From IMG/VR virus record IMGVR_UViG_2541047758_000018: a DNA stretch of 34,871 bases. One strand, written 5' to 3'. Under the pieces are notes generated by a model that worked only from the letters and a program-made list of their open reading frames with translations, was not told where the DNA came from and did not search any database. Shown in pieces: positions 6,765 to 29,304 of the stretch. Position numbers and translations under genes: made by a program. The first letter of the stretch is position 1; each line of letters starts with the position of its first letter. Source of the stretch: a virus. Taxonomy: Duplodnaviria > Heunggongvirae > Uroviricota > Caudoviricetes.

Positions 6765-7128
6765 AAATGCAGAAATGGCGCTTAGCTCCGCAATCGGAGA
6801 GCAGGTGGCAAAGATTGCTGGTGCTGTGTGGATTCATAACCTTCATTCTACTGGTGAAGAGAAAATGGCAATTCAGACGCCAGAGGGACGCACCATTACT
6901 ACATCTCTGAAGCCGTCAGATGTTTGTGATCTGATTTGCGCATTCATGTACCCAGCAATGAGGACTGTCCACGGCGATAAGTGGAAACTTGCGACAACCG
7001 CTGAATTTGATATGTGGCTAAACAATGATGGCATGCTGACTGATTACGGAATAACCAAGTGGCAGATGCTGGTTAGCCATATCGCAAACGCTATAGACCA
7101 CGTGGGGTACGGTGATGCGAAACATTGA
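6757..7128 (+). CDS. hypothetical protein (123 aa)
   Basis: ORF track; SD GGGAGG. Confidence 0.55.
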   Translation: MRENAEMALSSAIGEQVAKIAGAVWIHNLHSTGEEKMAIQTPEGRTITTSLKPSDVCDLICAFMYPAMRTVHGDKWKLATTAEFDMWLNNDGMLTDYGITKWQMLVSHIANAIDHVGYGDAKH

Positions 7129-9871
7129 TCTTATCCGTCAGGTTATCAGTGCGTCTGAAAACAACTGGCCTCATGTGCTGGGCTGCCTGAACATAAATGT
7201 CCCTGACTCTCCGCGCCGTCATGCTCCCTGCCCTGCATGTGGGGGCAAAGATCGATTCCGATTCGACGACAACGGGCGCGGTAGCTTCATCTGTAATCAG
7301 TGCGGCGCTGGTGATGGGCTGGATTTAATTAAACGCGTAAATAACTGCGACACAACAGAGGCGGCGTTGCTTGCCGCTGATGTTCTGGGTATTGATTACC
7401 GGACAACGGAAACACCAGAAGCCACCAGCCAGAAACGGGAACAACTGGAAACCGAGCGCCAGCGACGCGAACAGGAGCGCCTGAAAAGGGCAGAGAAGGA
7501 CGAACAACAAAGACGGGATACGTTTTCCCGTCAGTTTGATGACATGCGCAGAAAGGCTGTAAACGGCAAATCTGATTATCTGGTTGCGAAAGGGGTAGGT
7601 GATTTTACATTCCCCGTGTTGCCCGATGGATCTCTGTTGCTGGCGCTGGTGGATAAATCCGGCGCAGTCACAGCAGCACAGACTATTACCTCACATGGTG
7701 AAAAAAGACTCCTGACAGGTTCAGCAAAGCGAGGGGCATATCACGCCATAAACGCACCAGAAACAACACAGAGCATCTTAATCGCAGAAGGGCTGGCAAC
7801 GGCATTATCTGCCCATTTAATTCGTCCAGAGGCGCTGACAGTGGCGGCGATTGATGCCGGGAACCTGTTATATGTCGCCCAGGTACTGCGGGATAAATTT
7901 CCTTCAGCACAAATCATCATTGCTGCGGATAACGACCACAGCGAAGGAAGACAAAACACGGGGAGAATAGCAGCAGAAAAAGCAGCTTTATCTGTTTCTG
8001 GATGGGTGGCATTACCCCCGACAGATCACAAAGCAGACTGGAATGATTACCACCAAAAACACGGCATTAAATGCGCCACAGAAGCGTTCAATAAGTCAAT
8101 GTACCAACCACAGGGTAATGGCGTGAAACAGGAGCCACAGACCATTGAGGGAAGCGATTTTAAGGTTATGGATACCGACCCACTGAAACCAAGAATAGAA
8201 AGCCGCGAGGATGGTATTTATTGGGTATCTCCGAGAGCTGACAGCCAGAGTGGAGAAATCATCAATAACGAAAGCTGGTTATGTTCTCCGTTAAGCGTTA
8301 TCGGTACTGGCAGAGACGATAAAGACCAGTATCTCATTCTTCGCTGGCTGTCGTTTGGTTCTGAAACGCCGACAACCGCTGCCATTCCACTGGCTGATAT
8401 TGGTGAACGTGAAGGATGGCGCACACTTAAAGCTGGTGGGGTAAATGTCACGACCAAAAGCAGCCTCAGAGCAATACTGGCAGACTGGCTACAACGCAGT
8501 GGCTCTCGTGAATTGTGGCGTGTTGCTCATGCCACTGGCTGGCAATGCGGAGCGTACATCATGCCTGATGGGGAAATCATCGGAACACCTGAAAATCCTG
8601 TGCTGTTCAGCGGGAGAAGCTCAGCCGCAGCCGGATATACCGTCTCAGGGAGCGCGAAAAGCTGGCGTGATAACGTGGCGCGTCTGGCCTTTGGTAACTA
8701 TTCAATGATGACCGGGATCGGCGCAGCACTGGCAGCGCCATTGATTGGGCTGGTGGGCGCTGACGGGTTCGGCATTCATTTCTATGAGCAGTCGAGCGCA
8801 GGTAAGACCACCACGGCAAACGTGGCGAGCAGCTTATACGGCAACCCTGATTTACTGCGGCTGACGTGGTACGGAACCGCGCTGGGGCTGGCAAATGAAG
8901 CTGCCGCCCACAATGACGGACTAATGCCGCTTGATGAAGTTGGTCAGGGCGCTGATCCTGTCAGTGTTTCACAGTCTGCCTATGCGTTATTTAACGGTGT
9001 AGGGAAACTGCAAGGCGCTAAAGATGGTGGAAACCGGGATCTAAAACGCTGGCGTACAGTGGCAATCAGCACCGGAGAAATGGATTTAGAAACATTTATC
9101 GCTACTTCCGGGCGAAAAACCAAAGCCGGGCAACTGGTGCGACTGCTGAATATTCCGTTGAGTAAAGCAGTACGCTTTCACGATTACCAGAACGGAAAAC
9201 AGCACGCAGACGCACTGAAAGACGCTTACCAGCATCACCACGGCGCGTCCGGGCGTGAGTGGATTAAATGGCTGGCAGACCACCAGCAACAGGCTATTAA
9301 AACTGTTCGTGATTGCGAAAGCAGATGGAGAAGCCTGATCCCATCCGATTATGGTGAGCAGGTTCACCGTGTAGCCGCGCGATTTGCCATTCTGGAGGCC
9401 GCATTGTTGTTAGGCGAGGTTGTAACAGGCTGGGATGCTCAGACATGCCGTGATGCGATACAGCACAGCTATAACGCATGGTTGCGCGAGTTCGGCACAG
9501 GTAACAAAGAGCATCAGCAGATTATTGAACAAACGGAGGCATTTCTTAATGCCTATGGGCTTAGCCGTTTTGCACCATTTCCATACAGCCCGGCAGATTT
9601 GCCCATCAAAGATTTAGCCGGATACCGTCAGCGTGGAGAACATGACGAAAGTCCAATGATTTTCTACACATTCCCGGCCACATTTGAAAAGGAGATCGCA
9701 TGTGGTTTCAACGCAAAACAGTTTGCTGAAGTGTTGAAAAAAGCCGGGATGCTAACCCCACCAAACAGCGGTCGTGGATACCAAAGAAAATCACCACGTA
9801 TTCAGGGACGACAAATAAACGTTTATGTACTCAATTACCAGCCAGGAGATTACAACTCATCTGAAGAATGA
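7115..9871 (+). CDS. satellite primase-helicase (Zn-ribbon primase domain + Toprim + DUF927/D5-like P-loop NTPase)
   Basis: The CPACGGKDRFRFDD...FICNQCG zinc ribbon is present. A Toprim-like IAEGLATALS...IIAADND motif follows. A Walker A motif FYEQSSAGKTT is present. The ATG at 7115 follows the GTG at 7112 used by the track. This is the typical P4 alpha/PICI pri-rep architecture. Confidence 0.88.
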   Translation: MRNIDLIRQVISASENNWPHVLGCLNINVPDSPRRHAPCPACGGKDRFRFDDNGRGSFICNQCGAGDGLDLIKRVNNCDTTEAALLAADVLGIDYRTTETPEATSQKREQLETERQRREQERLKRAEKDEQQRRDTFSRQFDDMRRKAVNGKSDYLVAKGVGDFTFPVLPDGSLLLALVDKSGAVTAAQTITSHGEKRLLTGSAKRGAYHAINAPETTQSILIAEGLATALSAHLIRPEALTVAAIDAGNLLYVAQVLRDKFPSAQIIIAADNDHSEGRQNTGRIAAEKAALSVSGWVALPPTDHKADWNDYHQKHGIKCATEAFNKSMYQPQGNGVKQEPQTIEGSDFKVMDTDPLKPRIESREDGIYWVSPRADSQSGEIINNESWLCSPLSVIGTGRDDKDQYLILRWLSFGSETPTTAAIPLADIGEREGWRTLKAGGVNVTTKSSLRAILADWLQRSGSRELWRVAHATGWQCGAYIMPDGEIIGTPENPVLFSGRSSAAAGYTVSGSAKSWRDNVARLAFGNYSMMTGIGAALAAPLIGLVGADGFGIHFYEQSSAGKTTTANVASSLYGNPDLLRLTWYGTALGLANEAAAHNDGLMPLDEVGQGADPVSVSQSAYALFNGVGKLQGAKDGGNRDLKRWRTVAISTGEMDLETFIATSGRKTKAGQLVRLLNIPLSKAVRFHDYQNGKQHADALKDAYQHHHGASGREWIKWLADHQQQAIKTVRDCESRWRSLIPSDYGEQVHRVAARFAILEAALLLGEVVTGWDAQTCRDAIQHSYNAWLREFGTGNKEHQQIIEQTEAFLNAYGLSRFAPFPYSPADLPIKDLAGYRQRGEHDESPMIFYTFPATFEKEIACGFNAKQFAEVLKKAGMLTPPNSGRGYQRKSPRIQGRQINVYVLNYQPGDYNSSEE

Positions 9872-9896
9872 GCTTCTTCATGTGCGTAGAAAAGGT

Positions 9897-10007
9897 GTTG
9901 GTTCAGTTGGTTCAGTTGGTTCAATTTGTAAAGAGTATTGTTTTATAAGGATTTTATTCTTTTTATTGAACCAACACTGAACCAACAACACGGTATTTTG
10001 AACCAAC
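9897..10007. repeat. iteron-type replication origin: 3 tandem GTTGGTTCA direct repeats plus 3 inverted TGAACCAAC copies around an AT-rich spacer
   Basis: The direct repeats lie at 9897-9923. The inverted copies lie at about 9967-9975, 9978-9986 and 9999-10007. The cluster is immediately 3' of the primase-helicase gene, as in P4/PICI ori regions. Confidence 0.75.
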
Positions 10008-10327
10008 ACAATGTGACTGAATTGATGCGCACAACACCTGGCTGGCATCAGAGAGTGTTTTACGAGACTTTCGTAAAATCCTGTGTACAAGGGCGTGACG
10101 TTTTTGAAAGTGAGCACTACGAAATTTTCGTAGTTCAAAAAACAGCCTCTGAGAAGTTGTTATGCCTGTTCAGCAAACCATCCGCATAGCTGATCGCGAA
10201 TCAAATTACCAATGGAGCCAGAAGCAAGGGCAGAACTGAAAAGCACCTGCCGTGAAGAGTAATGCGATACCATAAATATAGTTTTTAGAGTCCATAAAAA
10301 ACCTGTCAAAACCTGACACACAGAACG

Positions 10328-10361
10328 ATGCCACCAGCTACTGAGCGGTGGCATTTTTTTT
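10328..10361 (+). terminator. rho-independent terminator (ATGCCACC-N11-GGTGGCAT + T8)
   Basis: read directly; closes the primase/ori module. Confidence 0.7.
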
Positions 10362-10456
10362 GTGCTATTTGTTTCATATTTTGCAATTACGATGATGAAT
10401 ATTGCGATTTGTGAAACTATAATAACTGTTGTTTTATACAGTTCTAAGGGGGCGTT

Positions 10457-10618
10457 ATGGCTATTTCAGTAAAGCCGGTATTGATAAGTGAGAAGCAAAT
10501 GGAAGCGATAAAGAAAATTCAGGAAGAGCAGCGTAAAAAATCAGGAATTGGAGTAGCGCCAACTCTGCATGAAATTGCACGAGGGTTAATAGATAAGGCG
10601 CTGGCAGGCTGTATGTGA
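10457..10618 (+). CDS. small hypothetical protein (53 aa) with strong SD
   Basis: TAAGGGGGCG lies 5 nt before the ATG. Frame and stop were hand-translated (MAISVKPVLISEKQMEAIKK...ALAGCM). It is below the 60 aa track cut-off. Confidence 0.4.
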   Translation: MAISVKPVLISEKQMEAIKKIQEEQRKKSGIGVAPTLHEIARGLIDKALAGCM

Positions 10619-10634
10619 AAATGGATGGCATCGC

Positions 10635-11096
10635 ATGGAACTAAAATTTATTGATAACCCTGTGCGATTACAGGCCTTTCTTAACGAGCCAGGCAATACC
10701 GAAAATATTGTTGAGCCGGGGCACACGTACTACATCAAGCCTGATGCGGTATATCTCGGCATCTACGAAGGATTAGTGCTGGCTGGCGTTCATGAAGTGC
10801 GTAACTTCTGGCATAGCGTTGTTGAATGCCATGCGGTGTACGACCCCGGATTCCGTGGTGAATATGCACTGCAAGGGCATCGATTATTCTGCAAATGGCT
10901 TCTCGAAAACTCACCATTCCTTAACAGCATCACTATGGTTCCTGACACCACGAAATACGGACGGGCAATTATCCGTTTGCTTGGCGCTACCCGTGTTGGT
11001 CACCTTGATGATGCTTATATCAGATGTGGTAAACCCGTCGGCGTAACGCTTTATCAGTTAACTCGGCAACAATATAAGGAATTCAGCGAATGTTAA
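10635..11096 (+). CDS. hypothetical phage protein (153 aa), first gene of ejection-protein-like module
   Basis: ORF track; overlaps start of next gene. Confidence 0.55.
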   Translation: MELKFIDNPVRLQAFLNEPGNTENIVEPGHTYYIKPDAVYLGIYEGLVLAGVHEVRNFWHSVVECHAVYDPGFRGEYALQGHRLFCKWLLENSPFLNSITMVPDTTKYGRAIIRLLGATRVGHLDDAYIRCGKPVGVTLYQLTRQQYKEFSEC

Positions 11097-11767
11097 TTAC
11101 CCATATAGCTCATAAACATCTCAATCGTGCCGTATACGAAAAAGGCGGTGATGGTGGTGCCTCTAAAGCTCAGGCGAAGGCCCAGCAGCAGGCAATTGAT
11201 TTGCAGCGCGAGCAGTGGAATACGGTGATGAATAATCTCAAGCCGTATGCAGAAGTCGGATTGCCTGCTTTACAACAACTGCAAGGACTGATGACTCTGG
11301 AAGGGCAGAATAAAGCCGCGAATGATTTCTTTGGTTCTGGTTTATATAAAACACAGGCAGATCAGGCCCGTTATCAGAACCTTGTCTCAGCAGAAGCTAC
11401 CGGGGGGCTTGGCTCAACAGCTACCAGTAACCAGTTATCTTCCATTGCGCCCATGCTTTATAACAATTGGCTCAGTGGGCAAATGCAAAATTATGGAAAC
11501 CTGCTAAATGTCGGGATGAATGCGGCATCAGGGCAGGCAACGGCAGGGCAAAACTACGCCAATAATACCGGACAACTCTTGCAGGGGCTTGGCGCTATTC
11601 GTGCAGGTCAGGCGCAGCAGCCATCCAGTCTTGCGCGTGGTATTGGTGGGGCAGCATCAGGCGCTTTAGCGGGTGCGCAACTTGGTTCCGTTGTTCCTGG
11701 AATAGGAACTGCGGCCGGCGCTATTGGTGGTGGGCTTATTGGTCTTGTTGGGGGGCTTGGATTCTAA
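11090..11767 (+). CDS. Gly/Ala/Gln-rich phage ejection (DNA-transfer/internal virion) protein-like, 225 aa
   Basis: N-terminal KGGDGGASKAQAKAQQQAIDLQREQW, a low-complexity G/A/Q body and a C-terminal hydrophobic GGLIGLVGGLGF tail. Size and order resemble the small ejection protein of P22-like phages. Confidence 0.55.
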   Translation: MLITHIAHKHLNRAVYEKGGDGGASKAQAKAQQQAIDLQREQWNTVMNNLKPYAEVGLPALQQLQGLMTLEGQNKAANDFFGSGLYKTQADQARYQNLVSAEATGGLGSTATSNQLSSIAPMLYNNWLSGQMQNYGNLLNVGMNAASGQATAGQNYANNTGQLLQGLGAIRAGQAQQPSSLARGIGGAASGALAGAQLGSVVPGIGTAAGAIGGGLIGLVGGLGF

Positions 11768-13086
11768 TGGCGACATGGCAACTTGGCGGGCTGCCTAGCA
11801 TGGCACCGCAAAATGATAATGCTCCTCGTTCTTCCGTTCCTCAGCCTGTGCAGTATCAGCAGCAGCCAAACGTAGGTTTAATGGCGCTACAGGGGCTAAG
11901 AGGCGTTGCTGAGATTAATCAGCAGGCGCAAATTTCCCAGCAGTTAAAAGAATATCAGGCACGGTTGGGTAGTGCGGTAGCTAATAATGATCGTGTTGGC
12001 GTGCAGAAGTTAATGGCCCAGTATCCCCAGTTTATGGCTGATTCTCAAAAACAGATGGGATTCATTGATGCTGAGCAAAATCGACAGACCGCTGACGCTG
12101 CCATGAATCTGCGTCTTGCGTCACAAACTGGAGATCCACTGACCATGCAGAAGGCCATTCAGCAGGCAAATCCAGTATTACAGCGATTTGGTCTTCCTGC
12201 TGAAGAGGTTTATCAGTCTTGGCAGAATGACCCACAGGAATTCAACAGAATCACTGACCTCATCCACCTCCATGCTGATCCAAATAGTTACTTTAGTGTT
12301 CAAGAGAAGCAGCAAGGGCAGAGCATTGCACAGCAGAACGCAGATACATCCGCATATAATGCTCAGGTTAATGCGGAACAGGGTAATCGACGTCTCGATA
12401 TGGAGCAGTTCAAAGTCCTATCCGATAACCAACTACGCACGAGAGAAATGGTTCTGAAAGCACGACTTGGACGTGCTCAAAATGACATCGAGAGAGACAA
12501 GCTCAATGCTGAACTGAGCAAGGTACAGCAGGCGAAAGTGGAGAAGATGAACGATAAAATTAATACTGTTGCAGGTAACATCGACTCCTTGAACTCTGCG
12601 CTTGAAGTGGGTCATGAACTGGCGGGAATTGTAGGGAAACATCCTTCGGCCGTTACCCGCTCGCAGAACTATAACCCCCTGACGCTGGGGTTTGGATTCC
12701 TTCCTGATGTAGCAGAAGACACACGAAGCCTACGCGCCAAAGCTGATGAATACAACCTAAAGGTTATTCTGCCTAGCCTCAAAGGGACTTTTGGCTCTAA
12801 CCCAACCGAAGGGGAAAGGGCTGCCCTTATGCAATCTCAAAATGGCATTAAGTCAGCAACCAGCAATGAGGCATTTTTGCGAGAGTTGAATAAAGCGCAG
12901 GACGTAATTATTCGAATGCAGAAACGACAGATTGCCGGGCTCGGTATTCCTGTAACCAAATCTAAGGACGAAGAAACTGATACCAAAATGCTGTTGCAGG
13001 ATCCTTCACTAGTTAAGGATTATGTGACCGCACATGGCTATCTGCCGGAAAGTTACTATCAGGCAAAACTTAAGGGATGGCAATGA
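11767..13086 (+). CDS. Gln-rich phage ejection/internal virion protein-like, 439 aa
   Basis: ATGG overlap with the upstream gene. It is Q-rich with predicted coiled-coil. It is the middle gene of a three-gene injection-protein-like set. Confidence 0.55.
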   Translation: MATWQLGGLPSMAPQNDNAPRSSVPQPVQYQQQPNVGLMALQGLRGVAEINQQAQISQQLKEYQARLGSAVANNDRVGVQKLMAQYPQFMADSQKQMGFIDAEQNRQTADAAMNLRLASQTGDPLTMQKAIQQANPVLQRFGLPAEEVYQSWQNDPQEFNRITDLIHLHADPNSYFSVQEKQQGQSIAQQNADTSAYNAQVNAEQGNRRLDMEQFKVLSDNQLRTREMVLKARLGRAQNDIERDKLNAELSKVQQAKVEKMNDKINTVAGNIDSLNSALEVGHELAGIVGKHPSAVTRSQNYNPLTLGFGFLPDVAEDTRSLRAKADEYNLKVILPSLKGTFGSNPTEGERAALMQSQNGIKSATSNEAFLRELNKAQDVIIRMQKRQIAGLGIPVTKSKDEETDTKMLLQDPSLVKDYVTAHGYLPESYYQAKLKGWQ

Positions 13087-15414
13087 TGGCACAACTGACA
13101 GAAAAACAGAAAGCCTATTCCCGTCATCTCGATGAAAAATATGGTTTCCCATCAGGGACGATGGAAACATTAGTTGGCAATGAATCTAGTGGTAACGGAA
13201 GTGCCGAGTCACCGAAAGGAGCTAGAGGATTTGCTCAACTGATGCCCTCAGTAATGAGTGATGCTGGTTATCGTGGAACAGATCCGCGCTCACTGCCATT
13301 TGAAAAGCAAATGGATATCGCAGCAAACCATCTCAATAAAGGAATGAAGCGATTTGGTGATATAGGTATGGCATTGGCTGGGTATAATTCTGGCTATGCT
13401 CGTATTAATGCCGTCAGAAACGGTAAATCTACACTGCCAGATGAAACGGCTAATTACGTAAGTAAATTTGCAGATGCTGGAATAATCCCTGATGACAGTG
13501 AAATCTTGCAGTTTGCACAAACCAGTCAACATCGCAATCTTCAGCAGCCTGACTACTCAGAGCTTGATAAAGAAATCTCTCAGGTGGGAGATATTTCTGC
13601 ATGGGAAGCAAAACGTCAGCAATTTAAGAACATAGAAGCAGGACTACCAACAGCCAGTTCATGGGAGCAGAAAAGAGCTCAGTTTCTCGCCGATGAAAAT
13701 GCCGGGGAACCGCAGCAGCAAGTAGCCAAGTCTAACCTTAATCCTGAGATGGAATATCTTTCGCCAGGACTGAAAGCTGCGCCAGAGCAGATGGCCAGAG
13801 GGATTGCTAATATACCGTTTGATGTAATGGACGCAGGCGTGGGGGTAGTCAATGCGGCGCAATCAGCCGGAGCATGGGCAGCTCAGAAGCTTGGTGTGGG
13901 TGATGGCACATACACGCCCATATCACCTGTCTTTCGCCCAGTAGACCAACCTACAGATCCATACGCGCAGGCTGGTGAGCAGCTAGCACCTTACCTTATT
14001 ACAGGATTAGGTGCAGGAAAGGCAGCTACCGCAGCTTCTTCAGTTGCCAACGCTCCACGTGCTGAACGTGCGGCCACAAAGGTGGCTAGTATGTTGGCAG
14101 AAAACCTGCCAGGTACATTGGTGAACGCCCAAAAGAACGGGCAGATCAGCCCAGAAGACCTAGCAAAAGAGACAGGTATTGGCCTAGCAGGATCGCTAGG
14201 AGCACGCGCTTTAATAAAGAGCGGACAGACAGCCAGTGACGTAATGCGAGATGTATTGCGGAGTAATACAAATCAATCAGGCCATGTGTTAGGGGCAGCA
14301 AATACTCTGGAAACCGCCAATGATGTATCGAAAGCAGCGCGTTCTGCCGTAGGCCGAGAGCATATCGCATCGCAGGCATCAAACGTCAGAGATGATGTCG
14401 CTAAGGCGGCGAAAATCACTGGTATTAATATCAACACCCTGACGCCTGGAATGCGCTCAGGTAGTCGTGGAATTGCCCAAGCAGAAGGTGTTCTGGCATC
14501 AACTCCTGGGAATGTTCAGGATGCTCACCTTACGGCCTTCAATGAAATATCCTCAAAGTTGAATAAGCAGTTGTCTGATTTCGGTGCTGAGTCTGGAAGC
14601 GCATCAGAAAAAAGCGCAGCAATTAAAGAGCGCATCATCGCGAGCCTCAGTGATATGAAAACAGCAGAGAATATGGCATGGGCAGAACTGCGAAGCACGA
14701 TGCCACGCGAAAGGATGAAAATGAGTAATGGGATGGCTGTCGTCCAAGCAGAAAAAGCAGCCAATGTTCCACTCAGCCCGGAGATGAAACAGTTTCAGGC
14801 TGCCAACAACCAAGGTGGCGGCATAACCTTCGACGGGATGAAGGCATGGCGTGCTAAGTTTGCTGATGCTGAACAAGCAAACACCCGGGCAGGTAAGGCC
14901 AATGCCGCCCGGATTGCCGGAGAAATGCGCAGAGCTATCACTGATGACATGCGCATCATGGCTGAAAAAGGAAACTTCCTCACAGAATGGCAGAAAGCTA
15001 ACGATCTCTCTAAAAGTTACATTATCGCCAAACAAAATGCCGAATCTGTTTTTGGTCGAGATCTCGCATCAGACGCTATGGTAAGAAAAGGTGCCGATAC
15101 GCTTAAGGCATCCGCAAACACTGGAACGGGAGCTTTTCACCGTCTTATCTCCGCGCTGCCGGAAGCAGAACGCCAACCTGCAATAGCATCTATTCTTCAG
15201 CATGCTGTGGCGCAGGGAGAGAAGGGAGGAATCGGTGAAGAGTCAGGTATCCAGTATTTTGCCAAGCTCATGACCCAGCAGAATGTAAACGCCATCAGTC
15301 GTCATGCGCCAGATCTCGGTAGAATGATGAAAGAGTTCGGTGTACTCGCTAAAGCCAGTACCAGACCGCAGCGATACGTAGAGCGCACGGGAAGAACAAC
15401 TGAGGCTCTCAAAA
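13077..15414 (+). pseudogene. large ejection/internal virion protein with N-terminal SLT lytic transglycosylase domain, 3' truncated by IS911
   Basis: SLT family-1 motifs are present: NESSGN...SPKGARGFAQLMP and the ALAGYNSGYARI (AYNxG) motif. The reading frame runs into the IS911 inverted repeat at about 15415, so the listed stop at 15569 is IS-derived. Confidence 0.75.
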
Positions 15415-15444
15415 TGAAGTGGTCAACAAAAACTGGCCACCGAG

Positions 15445-16628
<1,184 letters not shown>

Positions 16629-22074: not shown

Positions 22075-22509
22075 ATGAGTAAGAAGAAAATTTCTTTTGA
22101 AAATGAAGAGTTCATTACTTACCGGGCATTACTTCTGAGTATTGACTTTGTTAAAAAACTGGTTATAGAAATGTCTGATGAAGATTTAAATAAGGTTAAG
22201 GAAAACTTTGACATAGCTATTCAGCAACGTAATGAGCGAAAGGAAAATATGAAAGCTATCAAATCACTCATGGATGAACATGGTATATCTCTGGAAGATT
22301 TTTATTGTGAATTTGGCAAAAAATCACAGGCAGGCAGAAAAAGTGTGTCAGGAAGGCATAAATACGAGTATGACGATAACGGTAAAAGAATGTACTGGAA
22401 TGGACAAGGACGTCGGCCTAAGGCCATAGCAGAGGCTATAAAAGCCGGAGGTTCTCTTGATGATTTTCTTATATCTCAGGAAGTATCATCTGGTCCTGAT
22501 TATGAATAA
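22075..22509 (+). CDS. H-NS family nucleoid-associated protein paralog (xenogeneic silencer, Hfp/H-NSB-like)
   Basis: 144 aa. The C-terminus YEYDDNGKRMYWNGQGRRPKAIAEAIKAGGSLDDFLI matches the H-NS DNA-binding motif Y.Y.DENGE.KTWTGQGRTP..I..A...GKSLDDFLI. The N-terminus is a predicted coiled coil. Confidence 0.85.
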   Translation: MSKKKISFENEEFITYRALLLSIDFVKKLVIEMSDEDLNKVKENFDIAIQQRNERKENMKAIKSLMDEHGISLEDFYCEFGKKSQAGRKSVSGRHKYEYDDNGKRMYWNGQGRRPKAIAEAIKAGGSLDDFLISQEVSSGPDYE

Positions 22510-22925: not shown

Positions 22926-23495
22926 CTACATATAGATAAATTCATATTTCACGATATACGACCCAATTTTATTAACACGAGCTGTTACCCATACACCTGT
23001 CATCCCCTGTTTATGGTGACTGCGCGGGAACTCTTTATTTGTACAAAGTTGTATCCATCTGGAAGTGTTTTGATCTTTCAACCAGAGTCCCGCTTCACAA
23101 TGTCCATACTTTCCTCTTGATGGTCCCGGAAAAACAACATCATATTCAGATTCATAGCTAATAACCTTATCCGGAAAAAGATAAACACAGACATCGTAAC
23201 AGTTCAGACTCAGTATAAATCCAAGACAAAATCCCCCCGTGAATGCATTTAATAAATACTTTAATGTTCTGTTAAAGGTGCGGATATAAAATGCATAAAT
23301 AAAAGAAAGAGAACCGGTGGTTATACCGGTGCAAAAATATGTTGTCCATTCAGGTACCGTATTTTGTAAAACAGTATAATGAGATATGGCGGATGCCCAC
23401 AACATATACCAGCACAAACCACCTGCAATAAGATATGTTATTGCTGTGGAAAACCATTTCCTGTATTTATTTTCAGGGTGATTGTTTTTGCCCAT
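22926..23495 (-). CDS. small membrane protein (3 predicted TM helices + about 85 aa C-terminal domain), downstream of dGTPase
   Basis: Hydrophobic segments: FSTAITYLIAGGLCWYMLWASAI, TYFCTGITTGSLSFIYAFYI and AFTGGFCLGFILSLNCYDVCVYLF. The ATG at 23495 is likely the true start (the track used TTG at 23498). It is 97 bp downstream of the dGTPase on the same strand. Confidence 0.55.
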   Translation of the reverse strand: MGKNNHPENKYRKWFSTAITYLIAGGLCWYMLWASAISHYTVLQNTVPEWTTYFCTGITTGSLSFIYAFYIRTFNRTLKYLLNAFTGGFCLGFILSLNCYDVCVYLFPDKVISYESEYDVVFPGPSRGKYGHCEAGLWLKDQNTSRWIQLCTNKEFPRSHHKQGMTGVWVTARVNKIGSYIVKYEFIYM

Positions 23496-23595
23496 CAACG
23501 CATTTCCAGAATATTTAAAAATAACCTGTCACCGAAACAGAATAAAGGCGCAATAACCATAACGGGAAAATATGCGCCTCTGGTAATCGACAGTG

Positions 23596-24828
23596 TTACT
23601 TCAGACAGTGAGTTTCCCATTCCTTGACTGCAAATGTATCCATCATACCTGAAATATAGTCAACCACTGCTCGTTTTTTGCTGATTTTAAATATATAGGA
23701 ATCTGGTTGGGGTAAGGTGAATTTAAGTTCAGGAGGCAGAAATTTATAATTCTCTCCTTCATTGTAAAAGTCATATAAATCCCTGATTATTTTATTTCCC
23801 CTGAACTCATAGGTGAGGATATTACGTTTTCGCATGATGACTTTAAAGAGAAGTTTTTTGAGCCCTTCGGATAACGCATTCAGTTTCCCGAATCCCAGTT
23901 CCTGAAAACCATTCAGGTTCGTTACTACAGAAATATCTGCAACGAGGCGATTGACAATATTTGAAGTTAACTCCTTGCGGAATATGATGGCAAATTCTTC
24001 TGAGGTTTTCAGTAAGTTAGCCTGAAAAGCGGTGTTTCTCGACTGAGTAACGATTTCCCTGAACTGTTCCCTCGCTCCCCGGAATTCGTCAGAAATCTGA
24101 AACTCATATTCAATATCTTCAATCGTGACCATGTTCCTGCTAAGGGCATCTTCCAGGTCATGCGCGGCATAGGCAATCTCATCCGCGAGATCCATTATCT
24201 GCGCATCAATCGTTTTCTCTCCGGGATTCAGATCGAGCTGATTTTCAGCAAGCAGGTTAATGTAAAAATAGTAATCATCATCATAAATGAACTTGCCGGC
24301 AGTAGCTGCAGCGCGGGGGATGGGATACTTAACAACCGAAAGTAAACTACGGTGAGTCAGATTTAATCCGTTGCAGTATGAAAATTTCTTCTCCAGTTTT
24401 CTCAGGATACGTAGCGCCTGTGCATTGCCTTCATAGCCGCCGATTTCTTCAGACAGTTCATTAAGCAGTTTTTCACCGGAATGACCGAAAGGAGGATTTC
24501 CGATGTCATGCGCCAGCGCTGCCAGTTCAACCACCACCGGGTTAACCAGTTTGAGGTCTGACGCGATACTTCGGGCGATCTGAGCAACCTCAAGACTGTG
24601 CGTTAATCTGTTTCTGTTGAATTTTTCAGGATCAATTTCAAAAAGTTGCATCTTTCCCTGCAGCCTGCGAAATGATGATGAATACAGAATACGCGCATAA
24701 TCCCGTTGATAATTATCCCGGCTTCTTGTTTCACCATCGGGGGACGGGTGCTCTCTGGTATCAGCAAGCGCACTGATAAGTTTTTGTTCCTGCTCTTGCG
24801 CAAATTCTTTTAATTCATTGCAGTACAT
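23596..24828 (-). CDS. dGTPase-family HD-domain deoxynucleoside triphosphate triphosphohydrolase (short form, about 410 aa)
   Basis: Contains NRNRLTHSLEVAQIARSIA and AHDIGNPPFGHSGE (cf. E. coli Dgt RTRLTHSMEVQQVGRYIA and MHDIGNPPFGHFGE), DLADEIAYAAHDLEDA, and an N-terminal RDYARILYSSSFRRLQGKMQ. The internal ATG at 24828 has an AAGGAAG SD. Confidence 0.85.
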   Translation of the reverse strand: MYCNELKEFAQEQEQKLISALADTREHPSPDGETRSRDNYQRDYARILYSSSFRRLQGKMQLFEIDPEKFNRNRLTHSLEVAQIARSIASDLKLVNPVVVELAALAHDIGNPPFGHSGEKLLNELSEEIGGYEGNAQALRILRKLEKKFSYCNGLNLTHRSLLSVVKYPIPRAAATAGKFIYDDDYYFYINLLAENQLDLNPGEKTIDAQIMDLADEIAYAAHDLEDALSRNMVTIEDIEYEFQISDEFRGAREQFREIVTQSRNTAFQANLLKTSEEFAIIFRKELTSNIVNRLVADISVVTNLNGFQELGFGKLNALSEGLKKLLFKVIMRKRNILTYEFRGNKIIRDLYDFYNEGENYKFLPPELKFTLPQPDSYIFKISKKRAVVDYISGMMDTFAVKEWETHCLK

Positions 24829-24978
24829 ATTTCTTCCTTTCTGGAGCATGTTACCAAATCAGAATACCGGATGAACAAAACTGGTGGCTACATCCTGTAG
24901 GGATTATGTATTAGTAAGCTCTGGCCATTAGTGCCATTTCAGGTTATGTGATCCTACTCACGTAATATGGACACAGGC

Positions 24979-25845
24979 CTAAGTGAGGTTCTGGTTTTCA
25001 AATTGTTCCGGACTGAGGCCGCCACACCAACTGTGCCGCCGCCACCGATTGTAATCACATTCGATATAATTAAACACCGTTGCCCGCATTATTTCCCGGC
25101 TGATAAAGTGTTCTCCATGGATACATTCCACTTTCAGCGAATGAAAGAAGCTTTCCACGCAGGCATTATCGTAGCAGCAACCTTTTGCGCTCATACTTCC
25201 ACGCAGATTATGCCGCTTCAGTTGCGCCTGATAATCTGCTGAACAGTACTGGCCTCCACGGTCCGTGTGAACGATAACGTTCCGGGGCCTCTTACGCCGC
25301 CACAGCGCCATCTGCAGGGCATCGCAGGCCAGTTGCGCCGTCATGCGTGGCGACATTGACCAGCCAATAACGGCACGTGACCACAGGTCAATGACCACTG
25401 CCAGATACAGCCAGCCTTCATCTGTACGTAAGTACGTGATGTCTCCTGCCCACTTCTGGTTCGGGCCACTGGCGTAAAAATCCTGCTCCAACAGATTTTC
25501 TGACACAGGCAGGCCGTGTGCGCGGTAGCTGACCGGGCTGAACTTCCGGGAGGCCTTTGCCCTCAGTCCCTGACGGCGCAGGCTTGCCGCCACGGTTTTT
25601 ACGTTAAAGGGGTAACCCTGAGCACGCAGTTCATCCGTCAGGCGTGGGGCACCGTAACGCTGTTTTGACCGGGTAAAAGCCGCGAGGACAACGCTGTCGC
25701 AGTGTTGGCGGAACTGCTGACGCGTGCTTATCCTTGTCCGCCGCTGACACCACGTATACCAGCCGCTGCGGGCCACCCGGAGCACGCGGCACATTGCTTT
25801 GATGCTGAACTCAGCCTGATGTTTTTCAATAAAGACATACTTCAT
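24979..25845 (-). CDS. insF: IS3 OrfB transposase (InsF-like, DDE)
   Basis: [32 protein letters not shown]...[26 protein letters not shown]...[10 protein letters not shown]... Confidence 0.85.
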
Positions 25846-26150
25846 TTCAGGCGCTTCGCGAAGTATGTCGCGGCCTTTTGGAGGATAGCCAGCTCTTCAT
25901 CCCGTTCTGCCAGCTGGCGTTTGAGACGTGCAATCTCGGTAGACATCTCCAGTTCACGTTCAGAAGACGTCTGCTGATTTTGCTGTTTACTGCGCCAGTT
26001 GTAGAGTTGTGATTCATACAGGCTGAGTTCACGGGCTGCGGCAGTAACACCGATGCGTTCAGCAAGCTTCAGGGCTTCACTGCGAAATTCAGGCGAATGC
26101 TGTTTACGGGGTTTTTTACTGGTTGATACTGTTTTTGTCATGTGAGTCAC
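25842..26150 (-). CDS. insE: IS3 OrfA transposase (InsE-like)
   Basis: [50 protein letters not shown]... Confidence 0.85.
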
Positions 26151-26297
26151 CTCTGACTGAGAGTTTACTCACTTAGCCGCGTGTCCACTATTGCTGGGTA
26201 AGATCACCCTGTGAACCATGTTGATATTGATACTATATTGACTATATGCCATACAGGTGGTAATGATTAGTTACTACCATACAGGAAAAGGTAGAAA

Positions 26298-27278
26298 ATG
26301 ACTCTTTTGGTAACGGCTGAGTGTGTTGACGATCTGATAAACGATGTTCATCAAGCTATCCTAGCGGATGGACTCAGTAACGATCCTACAAAAGGATCAA
26401 CTCTAGAGATTCTTGGTGCCTATCTTGTCCTTACCGACCCCCGCCGAAGAATAAGTAGAACAGAATCCCGAGGAAAACTAATTAGTTGCTTAGGTGAATT
26501 TCTGTGGTATCTCTCAGCTCAGAACGATCTTGAGTTTATAAAACACTTCATACCACGTTACGCTGAATCCGCTGAGTCAGATGGGAAAATACATGGTGGT
26601 TACGGGCCACGGTTGTTTAATATGCGTGGTTTATATAATCAGCTAAAAAATGTCATCAACCTTTTGCAGGAGAAAAAACCTACCAGACGTGCAGTAATAC
26701 AGCTTTTCGATGCCTCAGACTTGGTGCCCTCAAAAACTGAACAGCGAGAATACGTAGATATTCCTTGTACAATATCTATGCAGTTTATTGTCAGATGTGA
26801 AGAGCTGCATCTATTTGTTTGTATGCGTTCTAACGATGCCTTTATGGGGCTGCCTCATGATGTATTTGCGTTCACGATGCTACAGGAATTAGTTGCCCGC
26901 TTGATAGGATGCGAATTGGGTCACTATCATCACTTTGTATCCAGCCTACATCTCTATAAAAATGATTTAGAAAAAGTGAAGGCTCTTCAGAAAGAGGGGT
27001 TCATGAGCACCCTACCAGTCATGGGATCGATGCCTGAAATGCATTCCTTAGATGATATCTTACCCCTGCTTGAGGCAGAAAAAGCTCTTCGAGAGAATAA
27101 GGAATTTGATATTGACACTACTTCCTTGAATGACTACTGGAAGGATTTATTGCGTATATTAAAAATCCACTTTTTGTTACGTTCACATACACCCAACCAC
27201 AAAGGACTAGCCTTCCAAGAGTTGGCTGCAATGAAAAATCAGGAATATCGGTTTATTTTTGAAGGAAGACTACAATGA
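26298..27278 (+). CDS. thymidylate synthase-family enzyme (ThyA/dCMP-hydroxymethylase fold) with dCMP-type active-site signature
   Basis: Four motif matches support the TS fold. HGGYGPRLFNMRG matches TS GDLGPVYGFQWR. RRAVIQLFDASDL matches RRIIVSAWNPxDL. DIPCTISMQFIV matches the catalytic LPPCHALCQFYV. CMRSNDAFMGLPHDVFAFTML matches [21 protein letters not shown]. The specificity Asn of PFN is replaced by Asp (PHD), as in dCMP hydroxymethylases. Confidence 0.75.
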   Translation: MTLLVTAECVDDLINDVHQAILADGLSNDPTKGSTLEILGAYLVLTDPRRRISRTESRGKLISCLGEFLWYLSAQNDLEFIKHFIPRYAESAESDGKIHGGYGPRLFNMRGLYNQLKNVINLLQEKKPTRRAVIQLFDASDLVPSKTEQREYVDIPCTISMQFIVRCEELHLFVCMRSNDAFMGLPHDVFAFTMLQELVARLIGCELGHYHHFVSSLHLYKNDLEKVKALQKEGFMSTLPVMGSMPEMHSLDDILPLLEAEKALRENKEFDIDTTSLNDYWKDLLRILKIHFLLRSHTPNHKGLAFQELAAMKNQEYRFIFEGRLQ

Positions 27279-28219
27279 AAAGACATAATCAAATCAGTCA
27301 GCTGGTTAGTAATTTGCAAAATTTTAGCCGCAATGAACACAACCTAAATGGTCTAAGTTCTCCTGCCTGCTTTGATGTTTTAGCCTGTCAGATTATCGAC
27401 AGTATACGTCGTATACGCTATGTGGAAACTCTTGCATTACGGACCGATTATATGACTCCGTTACGAAAAGAGCCGAATTCTGATGTTTTTGATCCTCTCC
27501 GCGCTGCCTGCCTTTATCTTCGTGACAACAATTACGATGAAGCCTGCTGGCTGGTTTTCCTTGCCACACATTTCGGCAAGAGTAACAAAACCGGCTGGAT
27601 TTTGTGTCGAGATATATACAGTGGACTCGGTACACAAACGTGGACATGGGATACGATAACTGATGACTTTGCTGCTTTTGAACAATGGTTCGCCAGCGTC
27701 TCTGATGAGTTGACAGCTAACAGTAGCCTAAGACAATATGGTAACCATCGGAAATATGAAACGAAGAAATATCACTCTCGTCGTTCAATACCTGCGGTTT
27801 TTCGCTCTTACATCGGATTCATTGGTGCTACACACAGTCATGAGGCTAGGTTTGCAGAGGCCAAGAGCTTTTCATCTTCACCAGAATCTTTATTCGAACT
27901 ATTGTATTCAGGGCTAAATGCCGTGATCTCATTTGGACGAACCGCAAAATTTGATTACCTAACTATGCTCAAGAAAACGGGACTTCTGGATGTAGAGCCG
28001 GGTCATGCTTTTCTGAATGGAGCAACCGGGCCCCTTCAAGGAAGCCGGCTACTTTTCAGCAATAGCCGGACTGCTGGTGACACAATAGACGTATTGAATG
28101 AAAAACTAGCTGACCTTGCGGCAATTATTCCTGCACCCTACTTGAGAATGCAGGTTATTGAAGATGCGTTGTGCAACTGGCAGAAATCACCTGACCGTTA
28201 TGTCTATTTCGGCGGCTGA
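27275..28219 (+). CDS. unknown 314 aa partner protein, translationally coupled (ATGA) to TS-like gene
   Basis: No confident family. There is a weak helix-hairpin-helix-like segment ISFGRTAKFDYLTMLKKTGLLDV. It may be a DNA-binding/base-modifying or glycosylase-like protein. Confidence 0.55.
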   Translation: MKRHNQISQLVSNLQNFSRNEHNLNGLSSPACFDVLACQIIDSIRRIRYVETLALRTDYMTPLRKEPNSDVFDPLRAACLYLRDNNYDEACWLVFLATHFGKSNKTGWILCRDIYSGLGTQTWTWDTITDDFAAFEQWFASVSDELTANSSLRQYGNHRKYETKKYHSRRSIPAVFRSYIGFIGATHSHEARFAEAKSFSSSPESLFELLYSGLNAVISFGRTAKFDYLTMLKKTGLLDVEPGHAFLNGATGPLQGSRLLFSNSRTAGDTIDVLNEKLADLAAIIPAPYLRMQVIEDALCNWQKSPDRYVYFGG

Positions 28220-28221
28220 TA

Positions 28222-29304
28222 TCAGACGATATCTTCTTTACGGAATCTCACTTTAAACCGATTAAGGTGAGAAAAAGGTATATTACCTTCATGCTGCAAA
28301 TATCCCAGTACGATCCCTTTGGATACCCCCATTTTCCTAGCTAACCGGATGATCTCTTTCCAATGCCGGACACCATAGCGACTAAGTTGCTGCCGGTATT
28401 CTTCTGGGATAAGAACATCAACGGCAAATTTATCTGCTTCCTTTTCCTCTTCCGACGAAAGACTATCTTTACCTTCTACGCGAACTCGGACAGCTTCATG
28501 CAAGATGAGATGCCCAATCTCATGAAACAGCGTAAACCAAAAATGGTCATCGGTCAGATAACGGAAACTCATGACTAGGGTTGCGCGATCTGGTGTAAAA
28601 AAGCAGGTAGCACCACTTGCCCGACATCCCTTTGGCGTTGGCAACACAACGAGAGAAACTCCAGCAGTGGCGAGAAGGTCGCGAATGTAAGGGATAAAAA
28701 TCCTCATGTCGGGTTCATTTGTAGCTTTGCGCAGTTCTGGCAACAATGCTATCAGCACCTCTTTATCCCATACAGCACAGTTTTGGTTTGAGGTAAGTTG
28801 TGCAGCCCTAGTCAGCCACACCAAATCGGCCATAGGCTCGGTTGCCAGATTAAGAGATTTACGAAAAGCGACCAAAGGAGCATCTGACTGAATTTTATAA
28901 AAAAAATCATTGACGGAATTTATTCCGAAAAACGATAGGCAGTGCTGGAATTTACTTTCCCGAGTTGTAGTTTTGGGGATCCAACCAAACTCCATCATAT
29001 CACGTACAGGCAATGATTCGAGCCAATCATTATTCACTTTCTCGAGGTATCCAATTTGCTGGCGATAAGCGACTTCGCGCTTGATCCAGAAGTCTGTCGA
29101 TACGTTGAATAACTCCTCAAGCTTACAAGCCAGAGACTCATTGAGTCGGATTTTTCCTTCAAGAAGTTGCTGACCCCGGATAAGAGACAATCCAATCCTC
29201 TTACTCAGTTCTTCACCAGAAAGCCCATGTTCATCCATTAGATCTATAATTGTATCACCGGGTGGAGATACCCAGTCAGGCTGGAAGTCCTGCGTAACTA
29301 TCAT
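28222..29304 (-). CDS. HigA-like antitoxin/regulator: N-terminal XRE-family HTH fused to ImmA/IrrE (M78, HEIGH) metallopeptidase domain
   Basis: The N-terminus PGDTIIDLMDEHGLSGEELSKRIGLSLIRGQQLLEGKIRLNESLACKLEELFNVSTDFW is a HigA-type HTH. The C-terminus FHEIGHLILHE...EEEKEADKFAVDVLIP is an ImmA/IrrE zinc-peptidase motif. An ATGA overlap joins it to the upstream small gene. Confidence 0.75.
   Translation of the reverse strand: MIVTQDFQPDWVSPPGDTIIDLMDEHGLSGEELSKRIGLSLIRGQQLLEGKIRLNESLACKLEELFNVSTDFWIKREVAYRQQIGYLEKVNNDWLESLPVRDMMEFGWIPKTTTRESKFQHCLSFFGINSVNDFFYKIQSDAPLVAFRKSLNLATEPMADLVWLTRAAQLTSNQNCAVWDKEVLIALLPELRKATNEPDMRIFIPYIRDLLATAGVSLVVLPTPKGCRASGATCFFTPDRATLVMSFRYLTDDHFWFTLFHEIGHLILHEAVRVRVEGKDSLSSEEEKEADKFAVDVLIPEEYRQQLSRYGVRHWKEIIRLARKMGVSKGIVLGYLQHEGNIPFSHLNRFKVRFRKEDIV

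What the first reader, a model, noticed from the sequence alone, without database searches (positions are those of the whole stretch)
22926..24849. Short-form dGTPase-family HD hydrolase followed by a 3-TM membrane protein in AT-rich cargo
The 410 aa protein carries the full Dgt-type HD signature but is about 95 aa shorter than housekeeping E. coli Dgt. It lies in low-GC foreign DNA between an H-NS paralog and IS3. That context is typical of defensive dNTP-depleting dGTPases. A small membrane protein, with an N-terminal 3-TM bundle and a soluble C-terminal domain, follows 97 bp downstream on the same strand. It may be co-transcribed, possibly as an effector/regulator or an independent abortive-infection-like gene.
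Basis: partly seen in the sequence, partly recalled or inferred. Interest (0 to 1): 0.55.

Follow-up and report, generated by a model that had tools for sequence, protein, structure and literature searches.

The report
Stand-alone antiphage dGTPase beside unrelated membrane gene
The 410-aa enzyme is an ordinary member of a known family of phage-defence enzymes that destroy dGTP and works as a single gene, while the small membrane-protein gene next to it is an unrelated, independently mobile gene of unknown function that is adjacent only in E. coli.

Summary
Both ORFs exist as described, on the minus strand in 35-41% GC DNA between an H-NS paralog and IS3. The island is a mosaic integrative one carried by about 7% of complete E. 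coli genomes.

The 410-aa protein is not housekeeping Dgt. The NCBIfam Dgt model gives 155 bits against a cut-off of 405, and PDB 4X9E gives 80 bits. It matches the PADLOC dGTPase defence model at 365 bits. Its closest solved relative is Vdg of Vibrio cholerae (9VWA; 386 bits, 55.6% identity). Vdg is an octameric dGTPase shown in 2026 to block phages. All catalytic and dGTP-pocket residues are conserved, as are 7 of 8 dAMP-site residues and most octamer-interface residues. Relatives at 64-82% identity sit as lone genes in prophages and defence islands.

The membrane protein is not a partner.
- None of 33 loci from other species that encode its family has a dGTPase within 8 kb.
- None of 54 loci encoding dGTPase relatives (7 non-viral contexts, 47 viral contigs) has the membrane gene.
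- About 40% of E. coli genomes with the intact dGTPase carry a truncated membrane gene.
- A hairpin follows the dGTPase stop codon.

The membrane gene is a real gene (dN/dS 0.09-0.22) of unknown function. It encodes three TM helices and a predicted periplasmic small beta-barrel.

Verdict: a known kind of defence gene, with low novelty.

The parts
23596..24828 (-). Vdg-type dGTP triphosphohydrolase, 410 aa (HD + HD_assoc). HD motif at H107-D108; catalytic dyad H116/E119.
   Evidence: PADLOC dGTPase 365 bits; 55.6% identity and 386 bits to Vdg (9VWA); all 11 catalytic and dGTP-pocket residues identical.
24829..24948 (-). 120 nt of native upstream DNA between the dGTPase start codon and the IS3 end. 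Contains the Shine-Dalgarno AGGAAG. No sigma-70 consensus match was found.
23533..23581 (-). Stem-loop (9-bp stem AGAGGCGCA/UGCGCCUUU, 20-nt loop) starting 14 nt after the dGTPase stop codon, followed by a U-rich tail. Candidate terminator, and the 3' boundary of the dGTPase module.
   Evidence: -14.7 kcal/mol, z -2.2. The terminator scan did not call it because the loop exceeds 8 nt. Analogous hairpins follow the stop codon in 5 other contexts (z -3.1 to -8.3). Homology with other dGTPase loci ends at about the stop codon.
22926..23495 (-). Gene for a 189-aa inner-membrane protein of unknown function. Three TM helices and a predicted periplasmic small beta-barrel with two invariant cysteines. 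Not linked to the dGTPase outside E. coli.
22075..22509 (+). H-NS/StpA-like paralog, 144 aa, convergent with the membrane gene. Context only.
24949..26206 (-). IS3 (1258 bp) bounding the dGTPase module. The flanking triplets (ATG and CCC) are not a target-site duplication, which suggests an IS-mediated rearrangement joined the two sides.

Best explanation
The 410-aa protein is a stand-alone, single-gene antiphage dGTPase of the Vdg type. It is carried as cargo on a mosaic integrative island.

Inferred mechanism, by homology to Vdg (Shi et al. 2026, PMC13519002) and Sp-dGTPase (Tal et al., bioRxiv 10.1101/2021.04.26.441389):
- The HD-domain enzyme assembles from dimers into an octamer.
- It binds dGTP in a conserved pocket and hydrolyses it to deoxyguanosine plus triphosphate, using the HD metal site and the H116/E119 dyad.
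- A nucleotide site at the dimer interface tunes its activity. That site binds dAMP in Vdg.
- The loss of dGTP starves phage DNA replication.

The gene is probably monocistronic, ending at a hairpin just after its stop codon.

The 189-aa membrane-protein gene downstream is a separate, horizontally mobile single-gene unit with its own proximal upstream sequence. It lies beside the dGTPase only in the E. coli island and is not needed for the dGTPase to be kept. Its function is unknown. The structure suggests an envelope protein that presents a disulfide-bonded small beta-barrel to the periplasm.

Shown here: family placement, residue conservation, accessory distribution, and the lack of linkage between the two genes. 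Inferred: dGTPase activity, octamer formation, phage defence, and termination at the hairpin.
For: Family placement:
- PADLOC dGTPase 1.4e-109, 365 bits.
- TIGR01353 317 bits, above its cut-off.
- Best PDB match is Vdg 9VWA/9VWC at 386 bits over the full length. The paper confirms these entries as the antiphage octamer Vdg.
- Identity to Vdg is 55.6%. Catalytic and dGTP-pocket residues are 11/11 identical, dAMP-site residues 7/8, and octamer-interface residues 9/14 identical with the rest conservative.
- The same residues are invariant or nearly so in 113 clade members.

Not housekeeping Dgt:
- NF003429 155 bits against a cut-off of 405.
- E. coli Dgt 4X9E only 80 bits.
- Present in 385 of 5426 E. 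coli genomes.

Mobile and defence contexts of homologs:
- Next to the integrase of an O157 prophage and in Stx2c phages.
- In Klebsiella, in an island beside a 2092-aa NACHT protein.
- In a Morganella lambdoid prophage and at a Proteus prophage end.
- In Pantoea beside a SIR2 gene.
- In 47 IMG/VR viral contigs, at up to 82% identity.

No link to the membrane gene:
- 0/33 loci, 0/7 contexts and 0/47 viral loci.
- No conserved neighbour of the membrane gene in any of the loci.
- The upstream neighbour is divergent in at least 9 loci, so the gene must have its own promoter there.
- About 131 of 318 E. coli genomes with the intact dGTPase allele have the membrane gene cut to 96 codons.
- A few genomes show the reverse, with the dGTPase truncated and the membrane gene intact (H82-84).

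Module boundary:
- Hairpins follow the dGTPase stop codon in all contexts.
- Roughly the 45 nt upstream of the membrane gene align with its orthologs' upstream DNA.

The membrane gene is real. dN/dS is 0.09-0.22, and its GC is 3-22 points below its flanks in 31 hosts.
Against: No experiment exists on this E. coli protein.

Vdg's defence was shown by plasmid expression in E. coli BL21, so the physiological trigger and natural expression level are unknown.

The protein misses NCBIfam's curated antiphage_dGTPase cut-off (285 against 400 bits). It also lies outside the clade that Tal et al. found enriched near defence genes, defined as at least 45% identity to Sp-dGTPase. The full-length score to Sp-dGTPase 9P8W is only 169 bits.

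One dAMP-site residue differs: Vdg R31 is E33 here.

The intergenic hairpin is weak (z -2.2) and has a long loop. No promoter-like site was found in the 97-nt spacer. Read-through co-transcription in E. coli therefore cannot be excluded.
Confidence: 0.78

Rival explanations
1. The dGTPase and the membrane protein form a two-gene defence system. The membrane protein would sense infection at the envelope or act as a second effector, and the two genes would be co-transcribed.
For: The genes share a strand and lie 97 nt apart, with no sigma-70-like promoter found in the spacer. The intact pair is kept at 98-100% identity in about 187 E. coli genomes.
Against: There is no co-occurrence outside E. 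coli in either direction: 0/33, 0/7 and 0/47. The membrane gene is truncated in about 40% of E. coli genomes that keep an intact dGTPase. A hairpin sits between the genes, as it does after the dGTPase stop codon in other contexts. Vdg defends as a single gene. The membrane protein's conserved domain is predicted to face the periplasm, away from the cytoplasmic enzyme.
Confidence: 0.04
2. The dGTPase is not a defence gene. It would be a nucleotide-pool or mutation-rate modulator, like housekeeping Dgt, that happens to ride on mobile elements.
For: Tal et al. found that homologs below 45% identity to Sp-dGTPase are seldom near defence genes and may be housekeeping. The protein is below the NCBIfam antiphage_dGTPase cut-off. 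Many relatives at about 50-55% identity come from metagenomes and diverse phyla, with unknown context.
Against: Distribution in E. coli is patchy, at 7% of genomes. The gene sits at prophage moron positions and next to NACHT, SIR2 and type I R-M genes. Its nearest characterised relative, Vdg, protects against T2, T4, T5, T6, T7 and phiX174 in a way that depends on catalysis. It is far from E. coli Dgt.
Confidence: 0.1
3. The membrane protein is itself an independent single-gene envelope defence. It could be a superinfection-exclusion protein, or an orphan immunity protein against a periplasm-acting toxin such as a bacteriocin or T6SS effector. It would be unrelated to the dGTPase.
For: It is a low-GC single-gene insertion in 31 hosts and is under purifying selection. 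The family is small and patchy, with 53 clusters at 50% identity among 1.84 billion representatives. Occasional neighbours include Imm63, PIN, a DUF2726 helicase and RlaP. The topology presents a disulfide-bonded beta-barrel to the periplasm.
Confidence: 0.15

Closest known systems
Vdg, the octameric antiphage dGTPase of Vibrio cholerae O1 (DGT1B_VIBCH; PDB 9VWA/9VWC/9VWG; Shi et al., Nat Commun 2026, PMC13519002)
   Same: The two proteins align over their full length (402 aa against 410 aa) at 55.6% identity and 386 bits. The HD motif, the H/E dyad and all dGTP-pocket residues are identical. So are 7 of 8 dAMP-site residues and most dimer-to-octamer interface residues. Both are single-gene systems.
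   Different: Vdg R31, which contacts the dAMP phosphate and excludes dADP and dATP, is E33 here. Within the clade that position is R in 66 of the 115 aligned sequences (113 homologs plus the window protein and Vdg) and E/D/N in 38. Interface residues H235, K324 and Y382 are Y, R and F here. The residues that stack two octamers (C127, C366, N364) are not conserved. This E. coli protein is untested. Its context is an E. coli island rather than Vibrio.
Sp-dGTPase / E. coli G177 dGTPase (Tal et al. 2022; NCBIfam NF041026 antiphage_dGTPase; PDB 9P8W)
   Same: The HD dGTPase fold and the dGTP-depletion logic are shared. Both are found near restriction-modification and other defence genes. The PADLOC dGTPase model covers this protein too.
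   Different: It scores only 169 bits to 9P8W and 285 bits against a cut-off of 400 for NF041026. Its sequence differs from all the dGTPases listed in Table S5 of Tal et al.. Sp-dGTPase is a hexamer of about 460 aa, whereas this protein groups with the octameric class.
Housekeeping E. coli Dgt (505 aa; PDB 4X9E/6OIY; NCBIfam NF003429)
   Same: The HD-domain dGTP triphosphohydrolase superfamily (TIGR01353) and the catalytic motifs are shared.
   Different: It scores 80 bits, with only the N-terminal stretch aligned, and 155 bits against a cut-off of 405. It is 95 aa shorter. It is accessory (7% of genomes) and borne on mobile elements rather than core.
Clover (CloA dGTPase + CloB nucleotidyltransferase; Yamaguchi et al. 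2025, PMC12265719)
   Same: CloA is an octameric HD dGTPase used in phage defence. Clover is an example of a dGTPase that does have a regulatory partner gene.
   Different: The score to CloA structures is about 85-92 bits. No nucleotidyltransferase is adjacent, and the neighbour here is an unrelated membrane protein.

Membership tests
Vdg-type octameric antiphage dGTPase | HD plus HD_assoc architecture of about 400 aa, with full-length similarity to Vdg | tested here: met
   Pfam HD and HD_assoc. 386 bits, residues 1-407 against 1-390, 55.6% identity.
Vdg-type octameric antiphage dGTPase | Catalytic HD motif, H/E dyad and dGTP-pocket residues (Vdg Q59, L60, N133, K165, Y166, K176, Y214, D218, E330) | tested here: met
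   All are identical and invariant in 115 aligned clade sequences.
Vdg-type octameric antiphage dGTPase | Dimer-to-octamer interface residues, including those whose mutation abolishes defence (H235/E236; R322/K323/K324) | tested here: inconclusive
   9 of 14 are identical and 5 are conservative changes (H to Y, K to R, E to D, D to E, Y to F). Y400 and K402 lie outside the aligned stretch. The oligomeric state itself was not tested.
Vdg-type octameric antiphage dGTPase | dAMP allosteric pocket (R31, R35, R40, R44, Y47, Q81, K146, V286) | tested here: inconclusive
   7 of 8 are identical. R31 is E33 here, so the ligand may differ.
Vdg-type octameric antiphage dGTPase | dGTP hydrolysis and catalysis-dependent phage protection | not testable with these tools
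   Requires an enzyme assay and phage challenge.
Sp-dGTPase-type defensive dGTPase (NCBIfam NF041026; Tal et al.) | Score at or above the curated cut-off of NF041026 (400 bits) | tested here: not met
   284.7 bits in two stretches.
Sp-dGTPase-type defensive dGTPase (NCBIfam NF041026; Tal et al.) | At least 45% identity to Sp-dGTPase over at least 90% of its length | tested here: inconclusive
   Only the first 133 codons of Sp-dGTPase were available, giving 53.8% identity over a 104-aa local alignment. The full-length score to 9P8W is only 169 bits, in two stretches, which suggests the feature is not met.
Housekeeping Dgt (E. coli type, NF003429) | Equivalog score of at least 405 bits, a length of about 500 aa, and core-genome presence | tested here: not met
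   155.3 bits; 410 aa; present in 385 of 5426 genomes.
Clover (CloA/CloB) | Adjacent CloB nucleotidyltransferase gene | tested here: not met
   The neighbours are a membrane protein with no Pfam family above cut-off and IS3. The score to CloA is about 85-92 bits.
   0/33 membrane-gene loci have a dGTPase. 0/7 genomic and 0/47 viral dGTPase loci have the membrane gene. The two genes are truncated independently in E. coli.

The most novel reading that the evidence does not exclude
The 189-aa membrane protein may represent an uncharacterised, self-contained class of horizontally mobile envelope genes. It has three TM helices and a periplasmic, disulfide-bonded small beta-barrel. It inserts as a low-GC single gene between unrelated core genes in Enterobacterales and Pseudomonas. 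It could act as a solo exclusion or immunity factor against phage entry or periplasm-acting toxins. A much less likely reading (about 3%) is that E. coli has recently co-opted it to modulate the neighbouring dGTPase.
Probability: 0.15. Interest if true: 0.45.

Novelty: new member of a known kind. Interest (0 to 1): 0.2.

Why it matters
The result adds an untested E. coli member to the recently defined Vdg class of octameric dGTP-depleting defence enzymes. Members of this class travel as single-gene cargo on prophages (including Stx2c phages) and islands. That is useful for predicting phage susceptibility of clinical E. coli, but it is not a new principle.

The practical lesson is negative. Same-strand adjacency in an AT-rich island was not evidence of a functional pair here. 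The variable R/E residue in the allosteric pocket could be a handle on how different clade members are regulated.

Tried and rejected
1. A conserved partner for the dGTPase. ORFs from 33 loci were clustered, and 7 further non-viral contexts and 47 viral loci were inspected. None was found.
2. Function of the membrane protein from sequence. There is no hit in NCBIfam, PADLOC or PHROGs. The only Pfam hit is a sub-threshold chance match to Voltage_CLC (16 bits against a cut-off of 24.8). An exhaustive profile search found only same-architecture relatives.
4. Promoter and terminator consensus scans of the spacer found nothing. The hairpin was found only by folding.
5. Whether this protein is the E. 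coli G177 dGTPase tested by Tal et al. It is not.
6. Literature on the RefSeq accessions WP_000271621, WP_000271619, WP_000566662 and WP_021522448. None was found.
7. A link between the dGTPase and the neighbouring TS-like/aGPT-Pplase3 cassette. This was rejected. The cassette occurs without a dGTPase in Vibrio and Bradyrhizobium. IS3 between them lacks a target-site duplication.
Full report
**Observation.** The two ORFs are real and lie on the minus strand. The dGTPase-family ORF is 23596-24849 (417 aa), or 410 aa from the ATG at 24828. The membrane-protein ORF is 22926-23498/23495 (190 or 189 aa). They are 97-100 nt apart. The 410-aa start is the right one. It has an AGGAAG ribosome-binding site, is the RefSeq start, and aligns from residue 1 with the closest solved homolog. 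GC is 0.35-0.41 across the pair, against about 0.5 in the flanks. An H-NS/StpA-like gene (22075-22509, +) lies on one side. A complete 1258-bp IS3 (24949-26206) lies on the other.

**Setting.** The window is an E. coli chromosomal island. In strain S3 the same block sits beside yicL/nlpA, among integrase remnants, CP4-type genes, a MazG-like gene and a type I R-M system. In the window itself the island begins with an integrase and carries AntA, Ash, a DUF927 primase and P22-type ejection proteins. It ends in a type I HsdR gene.

**What the enzyme is.**
- Pfam finds HD and HD_assoc. TIGR01353 (dGTP_triPase) scores 317 bits against a cut-off of 152. The PADLOC defence model 'dGTPase' scores 365 bits.
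- It is not housekeeping Dgt. The E. coli-type equivalog NF003429 gives 155 bits against a cut-off of 405. PDB 4X9E (505 aa) gives 80 bits over the N-terminal stretch only.
- It is also not in NCBI's curated antiphage_dGTPase family built around the Tal et al. enzymes (285 against 400 bits). It differs in sequence from every dGTPase listed in that study's Table S5. It scores only 169 bits to the Sp-dGTPase structure 9P8W, and about 85-92 bits to Clover CloA.
- The best match by far is 9VWA/9VWC/9VWG at 386 bits over the full length. Shi et al. (PMC13519002) identify these entries as Vdg of V. cholerae.

**What is known about Vdg.** Vdg is a square octamer of four dimers. It hydrolyses dGTP and binds dAMP at an allosteric site in the dimer interface. 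When expressed in E. coli it protects against T2, T4, T5, T6, T7 and phiX174. Protection is lost in the H114A mutant and in octamer-interface mutants.

**Residue mapping.** Mapping those residues onto the window protein gives:
- 55.6% overall identity.
- Both dyad residues and all nine dGTP-pocket residues identical.
- 7 of 8 dAMP-site residues identical, with R31 replaced by E33.
- 9 of 14 listed interface residues identical and the rest conservative.

In an alignment of 113 full-length homologs of at least 50% identity, together with the window protein and Vdg, the same positions are invariant or nearly so. The exception is the R31 position, which is R in 66 sequences and E/D/N in 38. The protein is therefore a regular member of the Vdg clade.

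**Accessory and mobile.** The gene occurs in 385 of 5426 complete E. coli genomes. Of these, 344 carry this allele at 95% identity or more, and 41 carry a variant with 67% nucleotide identity. That variant (64% amino-acid identity) lies directly beside the integrase of a lambdoid prophage in O157:H7. The same variant is in two Stx2c-converting phage genomes. Other homologs occur as follows:
- Klebsiella (75%): in a CP4-like island beside a 2092-aa NACHT protein.
- Morganella (72%): a reverse-strand moron between the replication and antitermination genes of a prophage.
- Proteus (81%): just after a prophage integrase.
- Pantoea (75%): beside a SIR2 gene.
- Cronobacter (66%): beside PfkB/nucleoside-deoxyribosyltransferase and QueC genes.
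- 47 IMG/VR viral contigs encode relatives, at up to 82% identity.

No neighbour recurs across these contexts. The enzyme travels alone.

**The membrane gene is not a partner.**
- Its family is small. The word-indexed search found 61 clusters at 90% identity. An exhaustive profile search of 1.84 billion representatives found 53 clusters at 50% identity. All are about 190 aa and come from Enterobacterales and Pseudomonas.
- A scan of one genome per species returned 33 loci with up to 8 kb on each side. None contains a dGTPase homolog.
- No gene family recurs next to it. The best non-self cluster is in 9 of 33 loci, and it is not adjacent.
- Sampled neighbours are mostly housekeeping genes: an MCP, an EamA transporter, a molybdopterin oxidoreductase, a sulfate permease, AmpC, a sulfatase and a solute-binding protein. 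An Imm63, PIN, DUF2726-helicase or RlaP gene appears occasionally.
- In at least 9 loci the upstream gene is divergent, so the gene must have its own promoter there.
- Conversely, none of the 7 non-viral dGTPase contexts or 47 viral loci contains the membrane family, by tblastn or by profile HMM.

**Independent decay within E. coli.** About 187 genomes have the intact pair. About 131 more keep an intact dGTPase, 99.3% identical in locus L035, while the membrane gene is cut after codon 96 by a rearrangement that brings in pap-operon fragments. A few genomes have the opposite arrangement, with the dGTPase lacking its 5' part and the membrane gene intact (H82-84).

**The spacer.** A stem-loop starts 14 nt after the dGTPase stop codon and is followed by a U-rich tract (-14.7 kcal/mol, z -2.2). 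Stable hairpins (z -3.1 to -8.3) follow the stop codon in all five other contexts folded. Homology between dGTPase loci ends at about that point. The 45 nt or so proximal to the membrane gene's start align with the upstream DNA of its Serratia and Enterobacter orthologs. The 97-nt spacer therefore looks like the 3' end of one module abutting the 5' end of another. The consensus scan found no promoter or canonical terminator in the spacer. Read-through in E. coli therefore cannot be excluded from sequence alone.

**What the membrane protein is.**
- It is a real gene. dN/dS is 0.09-0.22 between E. coli, Serratia and Enterobacter orthologs, and 20 columns are invariant across 29 sequences.
- Its GC is 3-22 points below the surrounding DNA in all 31 hosts. 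This is the signature of a horizontally moving single-gene insertion.
- AlphaFold predicts three TM helices and a beta-rich C-terminal domain (pLDDT 82). The C-domain modelled alone has pLDDT 89.
- Charge distribution (K/R 4, 0, 3 in the N-tail, loop 1 and loop 2) and two invariant cysteines place the C-domain in the periplasm.
- There is no match in Pfam above cut-off, NCBIfam, PADLOC, PHROGs or 50,697 phage genomes.

Its function is unknown. An envelope exclusion or immunity role is a guess with about 15% probability.

**Mechanism and verdict.** The most likely picture (confidence about 0.78) is a monocistronic, stand-alone Vdg-type dGTPase that depletes dGTP to block phage DNA replication, sitting by chance beside an unrelated mobile membrane-protein gene. 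Family placement, residue conservation, accessory and mobile distribution, and non-linkage are shown. Enzyme activity, octamer formation, the allosteric ligand, the infection trigger and termination at the hairpin are inferred.

The proposed functional pairing is not. This kind of system is already known and PADLOC detects it. The specific E. coli protein appears untested, since no paper cites its accession. I therefore rate it a new member of a known kind, with low interest.

**Noticed nearby.** Across IS3 lies a cassette of three genes. A thymidylate-synthase-like gene overlaps an aGPT-Pplase3/ADDT gene by 4 nt, and a convergent HTH-Peptidase_M78 gene follows (26298-29304). The same three-gene arrangement occurs in V. 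cholerae and Bradyrhizobium without any dGTPase. The aGPT-Pplase3 family has about 3900 members in the protein database, and the listed top hits with organism names are bacterial. The DefensePredictor paper lists aGPT-Pplase-containing systems as predicted but unvalidated defence candidates. That cassette is more novel than the finding examined here.

Noticed in passing
window 26298-29304 (TS-like 26298-27278 +; aGPT-Pplase3/ADDT 27275-28219 +; HTH_3 + Peptidase_M78 28222-29304 -): A thymidylate-synthase-like gene overlaps by 4 nt an alpha-glutamyl/putrescinyl-thymine pyrophosphorylase clade 3 / amino-acid:DNA transferase gene (PF18746 302 bits). These are enzyme types known from phage thymidine hypermodification. 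A convergent HTH-M78 gene follows, with a PADLOC PD-Lambda-2_B hit at 104 bits. The same three-gene arrangement occurs in V. cholerae (48-55% identity) and Bradyrhizobium (40-45%), without a dGTPase. The aGPT-Pplase3 family has about 3900 members in the protein database. No 5-hmdU kinase was seen nearby. DefensePredictor (PMC13092281) lists aGPT-Pplase systems as predicted but unvalidated defence candidates. This is a candidate conserved three-gene system acting on thymidine or dUMP.
   Followed up: partly
window 24949-26206: The complete IS3 between the dGTPase and the TS-like cassette has no 3-bp target-site duplication (flanks are ATG and CCC). The two sides were probably joined by an IS3-mediated rearrangement, not a simple insertion. 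The same junction is present in all E. coli carriers examined.
   Followed up: partly
window 1-16263: The island's left part has an integrase (1-1260), AntA and Ash-family genes, and a DUF927/Toprim primase (7112-9871). It also has a run of P22-type DNA-ejection proteins: gp7-like (11090-11767), an injectosome translocase (11767-13086) and an SLT-domain protein (13077-15569). No obvious capsid genes were seen. This is an odd satellite- or remnant-like arrangement. It differs from strain S3 at the same position relative to the dGTPase.
   Followed up: no
L035 (E. coli H9Ecoli, NZ_CP029180.1) 1-6000: In about 131 E. coli genomes the membrane gene is cut after codon 96. In the one such genome inspected (H9Ecoli, L035) it is replaced by pap fimbrial regulator fragments, and in that strain by an ISCR2-floR-tet(A) resistance region. 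The locus is thus a hotspot of rearrangement next to the retained dGTPase.
   Followed up: partly
L048 (Cronobacter, GCA_030710875.1) 2405-4540: Upstream of the Cronobacter dGTPase homolog lies a three-gene group: a 101-aa protein, a PfkB/nucleoside 2-deoxyribosyltransferase fusion and a QueC-like protein. The same group recurs on a second contig. It may be another nucleotide-targeting defence cassette.
   Followed up: no
dGTPase residue 33 (window about 24730-24732): The allosteric-pocket position equivalent to Vdg R31, which contacts the dAMP phosphate and excludes dADP and dATP, is Glu here. Across 115 aligned clade sequences it is R in 66 and E/D/N in 38. Subgroups of the clade may respond to different nucleotide ligands.
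   Followed up: partly
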